Virus record (IMG/VR): IMGVR_UViG_2721755712_000001
Source of the DNA: a virus
Lineage: Duplodnaviria > Heunggongvirae > Uroviricota > Caudoviricetes
Strand: one strand, 5' to 3'
Length of the DNA: 64,000 nt
Shown piece by piece: positions 44,095 to 45,003 of the stretch. Position numbers and translations under genes: made by a program. The notes under the pieces are model-generated. The model made no database searches and had not been told where the DNA came from. It worked only from the letters and a program-made list of their open reading frames with translations. Position 1 is the first letter of the stretch. Every line of letters begins with the position of its first letter.

Positions 44095-45003
44095 ATGATT
44101 GGTAAGTTGTCTGATTCTTTGATTGAAAATAAATACAACGAATTTAGAGAAGAAATATCTTTACTTTTTGACTATTTAAATCAGATAAATGATACAACAA
44201 AGAAAAATATAAAACGTCTTCTTAAAGAAGTGGAGTATGCACAGAATCCAGATACTATTATTAATATTAATGAAACTATTAAGATTAAGTGTGGCACAAC
44301 GTTAGCTCGCCATTTATGTTCAAACCCATATACAGGTTCAACATTAGAGATAGGTAACAGCGCCATTGATTTAGAAGAAAAGATAAGATTGTGTAATACT
44401 TTGAAAAATAAACAATATCAGTGGGTTATTACTGAAGCCTATGAGTTACTGGAAGACTATATTGAGGCAATATATGTCTATACTGTATGTGTTCGAAATG
44501 ATTTATGGTCCTCAAGTGATTTTGGTAAGGTTGAAGATGATGAAATTGGGAAAAGGGAAGTTTATTACAGATTATTAAAAGCAAAAAGTAACCCATCGAA
44601 AAAAATAACTAAAATTTTCAGAAATAAAATACCTGGCTTCAAAGAGATAGAAACAAACAACAAGATTGGCAAAAACTATCGCTTTAACATCAAGCTAATT
44701 GAACTACTAAGACATACAATAGTACACAATAGTGGACGATTCAATGATACAGAAAAATTTATAAATAAGGTTTTAGATGAATCTGAAATAAACGGTAAGA
44801 AAAGAGTTATTGGAGAAAGAGCTGTTAGAAGTTACATTACTAAAGTGCAAGAAGATGATATTGTGATGCTCTTAGAAAGACCATCTGAAATTTTAGGTTC
44901 TTTTGGTGGGTATTTTAACAGAGCAAAATTTTTACTAAGTGATATTTTAGAATACTCACTAATCATTAAAGAAGAACTAAAATCATATCTAGGCAATCAT
45001 TAA
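44095..45003 (+). CDS. AT-rich acquired gene with R-x4-H motif; candidate abortive-infection protein
   Basis: GC about 28 percent versus about 48 percent in flanks; opposite strand to neighbours; own terminator; ELLRHTIVHNSGR. Confidence 0.55.
   Translation: MIGKLSDSLIENKYNEFREEISLLFDYLNQINDTTKKNIKRLLKEVEYAQNPDTIININETIKIKCGTTLARHLCSNPYTGSTLEIGNSAIDLEEKIRLCNTLKNKQYQWVITEAYELLEDYIEAIYVYTVCVRNDLWSSSDFGKVEDDEIGKREVYYRLLKAKSNPSKKITKIFRNKIPGFKEIETNNKIGKNYRFNIKLIELLRHTIVHNSGRFNDTEKFINKVLDESEINGKKRVIGERAVRSYITKVQEDDIVMLLERPSEILGSFGGYFNRAKFLLSDILEYSLIIKEELKSYLGNH

What the first reader, a model, noticed from the sequence alone, without database searches (positions are those of the whole stretch)
44095..45003. 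AT-rich single-gene island with R-x4-H motif next to the tRNA cluster
This 302-aa ORF has about 28 percent GC in a region of about 48 percent, runs opposite to every neighbour, and has its own terminator. It contains ELLRHTIVH, which fits the R-x4-6-H pattern of HEPN RNases found in abortive-infection proteins. A recently acquired defence-type gene is the best reading, but the family is not identified.
Basis: partly seen in the sequence, partly recalled or inferred. Interest (0 to 1): 0.7.

Follow-up and report, generated by a model that had tools for sequence, protein, structure and literature searches.

The report
Unannotated HEPN-like gene, phage-plasmid cargo
A real, AT-rich gene carried as swappable cargo on an E. 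coli phage-plasmid belongs to a large, never-annotated protein family that looks like a HEPN-type RNA-cutting enzyme and is probably a one-gene anti-phage defence, though no function has been shown.

Summary
ORF 44095-45003 (+) encodes 302 aa. It has 29.3% GC against 45.8% for the window, the lowest stretch in the window, and faces all its immediate neighbours.

The window is an SSU5/pHCM2-like E. coli phage-plasmid. The gene plus its 173-bp leader form a 1,082-bp cassette (43922-45003). The cassette sits in a swap site between grxA and the tRNA operon. About 15% of the lineage carries this gene or a 56-59% allele; other members carry a different cargo gene.

The protein has no Pfam, NCBIfam or PADLOC match. 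It does belong to a family of at least 453 clusters at 50% identity, found in many phyla. E117, R206 and H211 are invariant, and all 147 full-length members keep R-[H/N]-x3-H.

Homologues are stand-alone, nearly always lower in GC than their flanks, and embedded in defence islands and prophages.

Best reading (about 0.5): a new HEPN-superfamily RNase family acting as a single-gene abortive-infection effector. It is not a member of Abi_2/AbiD/AbiF. "Recently acquired" is only partly right.

The parts
43922..45003 (.). Variable cargo cassette (1,082 bp, 28.7% GC): AT-rich leader plus the ORF.
   Evidence: Backbone homology to related phage-plasmids and phage Cyrano stops at 43921 and resumes at 45002-45004. 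In pAVS0968-B the cassette is replaced by a 420-aa gene on the + strand. In E. albertii plas1, ESBL242 and Cyrano it is replaced by a Phage_gp49_66 gene on the - strand. GC.
43922..44094 (+). AT-rich 173-bp leader. By eye it holds a weak sigma-70-like promoter, TTGAAG (44028-44033), 17 nt, TACAGT (44051-44056), and a Shine-Dalgarno AGAGG (44085-89) 5 nt before the ATG.
   Evidence: Sequence. The consensus scan found no + strand promoter at its threshold of 9 of 12 matches, and the by-eye site matches 8 of 12, so the promoter is inferred only. No ORF of 50 aa or more, no Rfam match and no tandem repeat lies here.
44095..45003 (+). ORF of 302 aa: a member of a large unannotated family with a HEPN-like helical core.
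44443..44445 (+). Codon of invariant Glu117, in the long helix 93-133 (inferred HEPN helix-2 acidic residue).
   Evidence: E in 98 of 98 sequences in alignment A2. Helix assignment. A conserved acidic residue in helix-2 is a HEPN feature per PMC3710099.
44710..44727 (+). Codons R206-H207-T-I-V-H211: the R-x4-H motif at the C-terminal end of helix 195-212.
   Evidence: R206 and H211 are invariant; H207 is H in 94 and N in 4 of 98 sequences. All 147 full-length members carry R-x4-H. Secondary structure.
45008..45027 (.). GC-rich hairpin (8-bp stem, 4-nt loop). A bidirectional terminator that belongs to the backbone, not the cassette.
   Evidence: -13.2 and -13.6 kcal/mol; the stronger U-tract is on the - strand. 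It is conserved at 95-98% in relatives that lack the gene.
43676..43921 (-). grxA (glutaredoxin), the left border of the slot.
   Evidence: Annotated as GrxA/glutaredoxin in relatives. Homology ends at its start codon.
45184..45837 (-). tRNA operon (Ser-tga, Thr-tgt, Tyr-gta, Asn-gtt), the right border of the slot. It is a backbone element.
   Evidence: ARAGORN and Rfam. It is 98% identical in lineage members that lack the gene (L051, L052), so it is not coupled to the gene.

Best explanation
The gene encodes a stand-alone member of a previously unannotated family within, or structurally convergent on, the HEPN superfamily.

Its core is a four-helix bundle. The invariant Glu117 sits on the long second helix. 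The invariant R206-[H/N]-x3-H211 sits at the end of the third helix.

Most likely it is a metal-independent endoribonuclease. In the lysogen it would be kept inactive. When another phage infects, it would switch on and cut cellular RNA (tRNA or mRNA), halting translation and aborting the infection. HEPN enzymes usually activate by bringing two R-x4-H motifs together in a dimer. This would protect the clone that carries the phage-plasmid.

The gene rides as a 1,082-bp cassette in a cargo-swap site between grxA and the tRNA operon of an SSU5-like phage-plasmid.

Shown here: the gene and its family are real and conserved; the motif; the fold resemblance; the cassette and its alternatives; the defence-island and prophage context; and the lack of a partner gene.

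Inferred only: RNase activity, dimerisation, the trigger, the RNA target and the defence phenotype.
For: (1) Family and motif.
- 453 cluster representatives with E<=1e-3, almost all about 290-300 aa.
- Only E117, R206 and H211 are invariant among 98 members.
- 147 of 147 full-length members keep R-x4-H. Among the 146 matching the strict motif, the residue after R is H in 140 and N in 6. N/D/H at that position is the typical HEPN pattern (PMC3710099).

(2) Structure.
- AlphaFold model: pLDDT 94.1, pTM 0.90.
- The motif lies at the C-terminal end of helix 195-212, followed by a loop.
- The acidic residue is on the preceding long helix 93-133, and a 60-residue insert lies between the two helices.
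- All three features match the HEPN description in PMC3710099.

(3) Fold search.
- About 15 of the top 25 hits are HEPN domains.

(4) Faint sequence hits all point the same way.
- DUF3644, a HEPN family per PMC3710099: the query's residues 182-223, plus 3 of 98 members.
- HEPN_Apea and Csx1/Csm6 HEPN also give faint hits.
- The best hhalign path to RnlA puts RHxIVH on the catalytic R318-H323.

(5) Context.
- No recurrent neighbour in 35 loci.
- 6 of 10 abutting co-directional genes are six different defence genes: Avs4, type IIG R-M, PDC-S32, PDC-S15/FRG and two HNH type-IV-like REases.
- Other neighbours include GajA, PD-Lambda-1, PD-T7-5, ToxN, a type I S subunit, integrases, a transposase and P2 tail genes.
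- 11 viral contigs carry relatives.
- Homologues have lower GC than their flanks in 34 of 35 loci.

(6) In this lineage the slot is a cargo-swap site with sharp borders and diverged alleles.

(7) Precedent: HepS is a single-HEPN-protein abortive-infection system carried on a temperate phage (PMC13043305).
Against: - No statistically significant sequence or profile link to any HEPN family. Pfam, NCBIfam and PADLOC are negative for the query and for 98 members. Profile searches of PDB sequences are negative. hhalign against an RnlA/LsoA profile gives E 0.13 and probability below 1%, and there E117 does not align with RnlA E258.
- I could not inspect coordinates, so the proximity of E117 to R206/H211 and the structural superposition of the motif on HEPN active sites are unverified.
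- The acidic residue is not in the usual E-x3-[K/R] form: position 121 is D in 63 of 98 sequences.
- There is no experimental evidence for RNase activity, toxicity or phage protection.
- The defence role rests on guilt by association.
Confidence: 0.5

Rival explanations
1. A HEPN-like RNase toxin that serves plasmid maintenance or addiction (a toxin-antitoxin module) rather than phage defence. Its antitoxin would be one I could not recognise: a small RNA, an antisense transcript or a factor encoded elsewhere.
For: - The element is a low-copy plasmid prophage, and such elements often carry addiction modules.
- A YafO-family toxin cassette lies 1 kb away, showing that toxins do accumulate here.
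- Promoter-like sites exist on the - strand inside and at the 5' end of the ORF (44918-44890 and 44105-44078). These could give antisense RNA.
- Many HEPN proteins are toxins of toxin-antitoxin pairs (HepT/MntA, RnlA/RnlB).
Against: - No conserved neighbouring ORF in 35 loci.
- No partner ORF, Rfam family or repeat array in the cassette.
- The - strand promoter matches are fewer than expected by chance (3 found against 6.3 in shuffles).
- Only about 15% of the lineage carries the gene.
- Chromosomal homologues sit in defence islands, not on plasmids.
Confidence: 0.12
2. A phage-benefit gene: a nuclease or binding protein that the phage-plasmid uses during its own lytic growth or against host immunity (counter-defence or host takeover), not a defence of the host.
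For: - It is carried on a phage, and relatives lie on 11 viral contigs.
- It sits beside phage tRNA genes and replication genes.
- Counter-defence genes are also AT-rich, fast-evolving cargo in hotspots.
Against: - Most relatives are chromosomal and abut restriction and other defence genes, without phage structural genes nearby.
- Its orientation is opposite to the backbone operons, and it has a separate leader. That fits lysogen-expressed 'moron' genes better than genes of the lytic programme.
- The tRNA cluster does not co-vary with the gene.
Confidence: 0.1
3. A helical protein that is not an RNase. The conserved E...R-H-x3-H would serve another chemistry (for example nucleotide or ligand binding, or a different hydrolase), or the HEPN resemblance would be convergent.
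For: - No significant sequence-level link to HEPN.
- Foldseek finds nothing for the whole chain.
- Some HEPN domains are themselves non-catalytic binding domains (PMC3710099).
Against: - Non-catalytic HEPN domains have typically lost R-x4-6-H (PMC3710099), whereas here it is invariant in 147 of 147 members.
- The H to N alternation after the Arg argues against an H-x3-H metal site.
- The placement of the motif at a helix end going into a loop matches the HEPN active-site geometry.
Confidence: 0.2
4. Not a functional gene: a chance ORF in AT-rich junk DNA, or a decaying remnant.
For: AT-rich DNA has few stop-free frames by chance, and the gene is annotated only as 'hypothetical protein' everywhere.
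Against: - Full-length homologues of about 290-300 aa occur in hundreds of clusters across phyla, with invariant residues.
- The AlphaFold model is confident.
- The gene is 99.7-100% conserved in 22 plasmids from unrelated sources.
- It has a good Shine-Dalgarno sequence.
Confidence: 0.01

Closest known systems
HepS (Gifsy-1 prophage, Salmonella; PMC13043305)
   Different: HepS is 218 aa; this protein is 302 aa with a long N-terminal helix, a beta-hairpin and a C-terminal extension. No sequence similarity was detected. The trigger (a tail-tip protein for HepS), the target and the oligomeric state are unknown here. The structural match to HepS is weaker than to minimal HEPN domains.
Minimal HEPN domains / HepT toxins of HEPN-MNT modules (AF0298, HI0074, TT1696, SO_3166, 7ae2, 8xdj)
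   Different: They are about 130-aa proteins encoded next to an MNT nucleotidyltransferase antitoxin. Here there is no MNT or any conserved neighbour, the protein is 2.3 times longer, and sequence identity in the structural alignments is 9-14%.
RnlA/LsoA (RNase LS) HEPN domain
   Same: The same 'RH' form of the motif: RHxLFH against RHxIVH, both invariant. The best hhalign path aligns the two motifs, and places the family's E186/N189 on RnlA E302/N305. Both are anti-phage RNases on mobile elements.
   Different: The comparison is not significant (E 0.13-0.45, probability below 1%). RnlA has a three-domain architecture and an adjacent RnlB antitoxin, neither of which is present here.
Abi_2 family (AbiD/AbiD1/AbiF), single-gene lactococcal abortive-infection HEPN proteins
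   Same: Similar size (about 300 aa), single-gene, AT-rich and plasmid-borne, with a predicted HEPN RNase domain. This comparison rests on my own knowledge and on PMC3710099.
   Different: No match of this protein or of 98 relatives to Pfam Abi_2 or to PADLOC Abi models at E<=0.1. By sequence it is not a member.
DUF3644 / EC042_2821 HEPN family
   Same: It gives the only Pfam hit of the query. The hit is faint but covers the motif region (residues 182-223 against profile positions 76-115; E 2.9). It recurs in 3 of 98 members (best E 0.0065). The family was classed as HEPN and linked to R-M operons in PMC3710099.
   Different: The scores are far below the Pfam gathering threshold (7.9 against 27.6 bits). 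According to PMC3710099, the DUF3644 model is also contaminated with AbiJ_NTD2 sequences.

Membership tests
HEPN superfamily | Conserved R-x4-6-H motif | tested here: met
   R206-x4-H211 is invariant in 98 aligned members and present in 147 of 147 full-length members.
HEPN superfamily | Polar residue (N, D or H) immediately after the conserved Arg (PMC3710099) | tested here: met
   H in 140 and N in 6 of the 146 members matching the strict motif. Criterion.
HEPN superfamily | [quoted passage not shown] | tested here: met
   In the AlphaFold model (pLDDT 94.1), R206-H211 ends helix 195-212 and a loop (213-218) follows. The long helix 93-133 precedes a 60-residue insert. This is based on secondary-structure order only. 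I could not inspect the 3D coordinates.
HEPN superfamily | Second conserved acidic residue in helix-2, typically E-x3-[K/R], close to the motif | tested here: inconclusive
   E117 is invariant on the helix I take to be helix-2. However, position 121 is D in 63, K in 8 and R in 5 of 98 sequences, and spatial proximity could not be checked.
HEPN superfamily | Fold similarity to solved HEPN domains | tested here: met
HEPN superfamily | Significant sequence or profile similarity to an established HEPN family | tested here: not met
   Pfam, NCBIfam and PADLOC show only sub-threshold hits. Profile searches of PDB sequences are negative. hhalign against the RnlA/LsoA profile gives E 0.13. Only one HEPN family could be tested profile against profile. 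HHpred against all families was not available.
HEPN superfamily | Metal-independent RNase activity that depends on the R and H residues | not testable with these tools
   This requires biochemistry.
Abi_2 (AbiD/AbiF) family | Match to Pfam PF07751 or to PADLOC AbiD-type models | tested here: not met
   No hit for the query at E<=10 or for 98 relatives at E<=0.1.
HEPN-MNT (HepT/MntA) toxin-antitoxin | Adjacent MNT nucleotidyltransferase antitoxin gene | tested here: not met
   No partner ORF in the cassette. No recurrent neighbour in 35 loci.
RnlA/LsoA toxin-antitoxin | RnlA three-domain architecture with an adjacent RnlB/LsoB antitoxin | tested here: not met
   hhalign is not significant. There is no downstream antitoxin gene: the terminator and the tRNA operon follow the ORF.
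Anti-phage defence system (functional class) | Enrichment next to known defence genes, and carriage on mobile elements | tested here: met
   6 of 10 abutting genes belong to different defence systems. Further defence hits occur among the 122 genes lying within two positions of a homologue. The family is found on prophages and viral contigs. It occupies a cargo slot in the phage-plasmid. No formal background rate was computed.
Anti-phage defence system (functional class) | Protection against phage infection when expressed | not testable with these tools
   This requires phage challenge experiments.

The most novel reading that the evidence does not exclude
This would be the founding member of an undescribed, widespread family (at least 450 clusters at 50% identity, across Proteobacteria, Bacteroidota, Spirochaetes and Nitrospirae) of autonomous single-protein HEPN-like immune effectors. 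The family has its own sensor architecture: a long N-terminal helix, a beta-hairpin and a C-terminal module, none with a solved full-length relative. In SSU5-like phage-plasmids it occupies a defence-cargo hotspot next to the phage's tRNA operon. A further, purely speculative possibility: if the enzyme is an anticodon nuclease, the adjacent phage tRNAs (Ser, Thr, Tyr, Asn) might let the phage-plasmid itself escape its own effector.
Probability: 0.4. Interest if true: 0.6.

Novelty: new member of a known kind. Interest (0 to 1): 0.45.

Why it matters
SSU5/pHCM2-like phage-plasmids are common in clinical E. coli, Shigella, Salmonella Typhi and Klebsiella. Current tools find few defence systems on them (bioRxiv 10.1101/2025.09.12.675607).

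If the reading is right, three things follow:
- About 15% of the E. coli lineage carries a defence gene that is invisible to PADLOC (tested here) and that a DefenseFinder-based survey of these elements does not list.
- The grxA|tRNA junction is a cargo hotspot that could be mined for other new systems. One example is the 420-aa membrane-anchored alternative cargo.
- Several hundred 'hypothetical proteins' in defence islands across phyla gain a testable function.

It would also add one more self-contained HEPN sensor-effector to compare with HepS. It would not change concepts: single-gene HEPN abortive-infection proteins are a known kind.

Tried and rejected
1. Direct family assignment. Pfam, NCBIfam and PADLOC found nothing. 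PHROGs returned only an unknown-function family that contains the protein itself.
2. Sequence and profile searches of PDB chains returned only noise, such as ribosomal uS19, SNAP-25 and CmlS.
3. Foldseek against the PDB on the full chain gave no significant hit. The afdb50 library was not available.
4. A transitive link through annotated distant relatives failed. All hits in the 5.8-billion-protein database are 'hypothetical' and carry no Pfam domain.
5. Profile-profile test against a bona fide HEPN family.
   - The supplement of the HEPN survey held no alignments.
   - My last homology search on RnlA returned only 3 close hits.
   - I therefore built a 6-sequence RnlA/LsoA alignment from plasmid records.
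   - hhalign paired the motifs but was not significant, so I count the test as inconclusive.
6. Partner or antitoxin search. I found no conserved neighbour, no small ORF of note, no Rfam family and no repeat array. I rejected the two-gene toxin-antitoxin and type III toxin-antitoxin readings as the main explanation.
7. Functional coupling to the adjacent tRNA genes. I rejected this as unsupported, because the tRNA operon is 98% identical in relatives that lack the gene.
8. H-x3-H metal site. I consider it unlikely because H207 is replaced by N in some members, while R206 is invariant.
9. Low GC as evidence of recent acquisition. I rejected this as the sole reading because low GC is family-wide.

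Full report
**1. The observation**

- Its GC content is 29.3% (GC3 23%). The window mean is 45.8% and the flanks are 45-46%.
- It is the most AT-rich 909-bp stretch of the window, about 4.8 SD below the mean.
- The immediate neighbours are all on the - strand: grxA at 43676-43921, two ORFs upstream of it, and four tRNA genes (Ser 45184-45270, Thr, Tyr, Asn).
- ELLRHTIVH is residues 203-211.
- An R-x4-6-H match by itself means little, since 48% of shuffles of this protein contain one. The motif's weight comes from conservation (section 3).
- A stable hairpin at 45008-45027 follows the stop codon. It belongs to the conserved backbone and has its better U-tract on the - strand. It is best seen as a bidirectional terminator that ends the tRNA operon and also serves whatever cargo sits in the slot.

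**2. What the locus is**

The window is an SSU5/pHCM2-like phage-plasmid of E. coli. It is 98.5% identical to CP053388 'Escherichia phage CMS-2020a' over this region. Its neighbours are integrase, an HTH regulator, grxA, the tRNA genes, DNA ligase, primase and a DnaB-like helicase.

I compared the window with five relatives. Backbone homology stops at 43921, the grxA start codon, and resumes at 45002-45004. The variable unit is therefore a 1,082-bp cassette, 43922-45003. It consists of a 173-bp AT-rich leader and the ORF. At the same junction other lineage members carry other cargo:

| Element | Cargo at the junction |
|---|---|
| pAVS0968-B | unrelated 420-aa ORF on the + strand, also AT-rich (31% GC), with a hydrophobic N-terminus |
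| E. albertii plas1, ESBL242, phage Cyrano | a Phage_gp49_66 gene on the backbone (-) strand |

Prevalence:
- The ligase backbone marker occurs at 95% identity or more in about 175 PLSDB plasmids.
- The gene's near-identical allele is in 23 of these, and 56-59% alleles are in 5 more.
- Among 5,426 complete E. coli genomes it is in 18, always on the plasmid.
- More diverged versions occupy the equivalent slot in SSU5-like plasmids of Citrobacter (43%) and Klebsiella (38%).

So the gene is accessory cargo in a swap site. It is also an old tenant of that site and is diversifying fast, rather than simply being a recent arrival.

**3. What the protein is**

No curated library recognises it. Pfam, NCBIfam and PADLOC are negative. 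PHROGs returns only an unknown-function family that contains the protein itself.

It is not an orphan, however.
- An exhaustive profile search found 453 cluster representatives (50% identity clusters) at E<=1e-3, and 142 at E<=1e-30. Nearly all are about 290-300 aa.
- None carries an annotation.
- In an alignment of 98 members (17-60% identical to the query) only three positions are invariant: E117, R206 and H211.
- N105, Q107, W110, Y116, Y127, W138, E186, N189, H207, V210 and G214 are conserved at 90% or more.
- All 147 full-length members retrieved have R-x4-H. Among the 146 matching the strict motif, the residue after Arg is His in 140 and Asn in 6.

With the deep alignment, AlphaFold gives a confident model (pLDDT 94.1, pTM 0.90). 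In order along the chain it has:
- a long N-terminal helix (2-50);
- a beta-hairpin (69-91);
- a 41-residue helix (93-133) carrying E117;
- a 60-residue insert of short helices;
- helix 195-212, ending in R206...H211;
- a loop with G214;
- two further helices, a small sheet and a C-terminal helix (276-301).

**4. Comparison with HEPN**

The 2013 survey of the superfamily (PMC3710099) lists the following as typical:
- an R-x4-6-H motif at the end of helix-3, running into the loop to helix-4;
- a polar N, D or H right after the Arg;
- a conserved acidic residue in helix-2 near the motif, often as E-x3-[K/R];
[quoted passage not shown] The third is met in part: the Glu is invariant, but it is followed by E-x3-D rather than E-x3-[K/R].

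The caveats are real.
- Designed helical bundles reach the same Z.
- Foldseek on the whole chain finds nothing.
- I could not examine coordinates.
- No sequence or profile link is significant.
- The sub-threshold hits are consistently to HEPN models: DUF3644 over the motif region, HEPN_Apea and Csx1/Csm6.
- hhalign against RnlA places RHxIVH on the catalytic R318-H323.
- But the profile-profile comparison with a six-member RnlA/LsoA alignment gave E 0.13. Two profiles that both contain RHxxxH would pair those motifs anyway.

I therefore put the HEPN-superfamily assignment at roughly 0.7. The protein is not a member of Abi_2/AbiD/AbiF, HEPN-MNT or RnlA by the tests available.

**5. Context of the family**

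A scan of one genome per species found 39 loci. They lie in beta-, gamma-, delta- and epsilon-proteobacteria, Bacteroidales, Treponema, Nitrospira and others.

- In 34 of the 35 loci with a complete ORF, the homologue has lower GC than its flanks. The median difference is about 10 points and the largest is 31. AT-richness is thus a family trait and implies persistent horizontal transfer or selection. It does not indicate recency.
- All-against-all comparison of neighbours found no recurrent partner.
- I scanned ten genes that directly abut homologues on the same strand. Six belong to six different known or candidate defence systems: Avs4, type IIG R-M, PDC-S32, PDC-S15/FRG and two HNH type-IV-like enzymes. 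One is an integrase.
- Among the 122 genes lying within two positions of a homologue there are also GajA, PD-Lambda-1, PD-T7-5, ToxN, a type I S subunit, a transposase and P2 tail genes.
- Eleven viral contigs carry relatives.

This is the usual signature of an autonomous, single-gene defence unit that moves between defence islands and temperate phages.

**6. Mechanism proposed**

Most likely (about 0.5) the product is a metal-independent HEPN-type endoribonuclease.
- It would be expressed from the lysogenic phage-plasmid and held inactive.
- Infection by another phage would activate it.
- It would then cleave tRNA or mRNA and abort the infection.

HepS of prophage Gifsy-1 sets a precedent. 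It is a single HEPN protein that senses a phage tail-tip protein and cuts tRNA anticodon loops (PMC13043305).

Everything beyond 'conserved HEPN-like protein in defence contexts' is inference. The non-core parts (the N-terminal helix and hairpin, and the C-terminal module) are candidate sensor or oligomerisation elements.

I found no evidence that the adjacent tRNA operon is functionally tied to the gene, because it is unchanged in relatives that lack the gene.

The rivals are:
- an addiction toxin with an unrecognised antitoxin (0.12);
- a phage-benefit or counter-defence function (0.1);
- a non-RNase helical protein (0.2);
- a non-gene (0.01).

**7. Novelty and verdict**

The family is absent from:
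- Pfam (2025 copy);
- NCBIfam (2026);
- PADLOC 2.0 (2023);
- the defence systems named in the text of a 2025 survey of SSU5 phage-plasmids;
- the papers I could search.

As a kind of thing, a stand-alone HEPN abortive-infection protein on a mobile element, it is familiar. I class it as a new member of a known kind. It is of moderate interest (0.45), with a clear experimental path.

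Noticed in passing
window 42511-43694 (ORFs 42552-42962 and 42972-43580, both on the - strand): A second variable segment lies between the integrase and grxA. It is absent from pAVS0968-B, E. albertii plas1 and ESBL242. It carries a YafO-family toxin gene (136 aa, Pfam PF13957, E 5e-22). Just upstream is a 202-aa ORF with no family match, which could be its antitoxin or partner. The same pair is present in Klebsiella phage pJN2-26.
   Followed up: partly
L050:2906-4168 (pAVS0968-B, NZ_CP124394.1): Alternative cargo occupies exactly the same slot and strand. It is a 420-aa protein with 31% GC and a hydrophobic N-terminal segment, and it has no Pfam or PADLOC match. It is another candidate unknown defence or exclusion gene.
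   Followed up: partly
window 45271-45590: A 320-bp tRNA-free gap lies inside the tRNA operon, between tRNA-Ser and tRNA-Thr. It holds a 23-nt direct repeat (45366-45388 and 45496-45518, 130 bp apart) and has no Rfam match. Most of it is missing in phage Cyrano and pAVS0968-B. It may be a decayed tRNA or a small insertion.
   Followed up: no
window 45104-45181: A 20-nt inverted repeat, 95% complementary with a 38-nt spacer, lies immediately downstream of tRNA-Ser on the - strand. It may be a processing or terminator structure of the tRNA operon.
   Followed up: no
L004-L042 (for example L015 and L026): Family members stay AT-rich whatever the host. They reach 32% GC inside flanks of 59-63% GC. 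It is unexplained whether this reflects constant transfer, selection for xenogeneic silencing or a compositional constraint of the protein.
   Followed up: partly
window 38223-40331 (- strand): A 702-aa protein with a long acidic, serine-rich low-complexity middle. Relatives annotate it inconsistently as 'cobalamin biosynthesis protein CobT' or 'dimethylbenzimidazole phosphoribosyltransferase'. These names look like annotation carry-over for a phage-plasmid gene.
   Followed up: no
window residues E186/N189 (nt 44650-44661) against RnlA E302/N305: The family's conserved E-x2-N lies about 17-20 residues before the R-x4-H motif. In the non-significant hhalign path it aligns with E302/N305 of E. 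coli RnlA. However, those RnlA positions are not conserved in my 6-sequence RnlA/LsoA alignment, so this is probably coincidence.
   Followed up: partly
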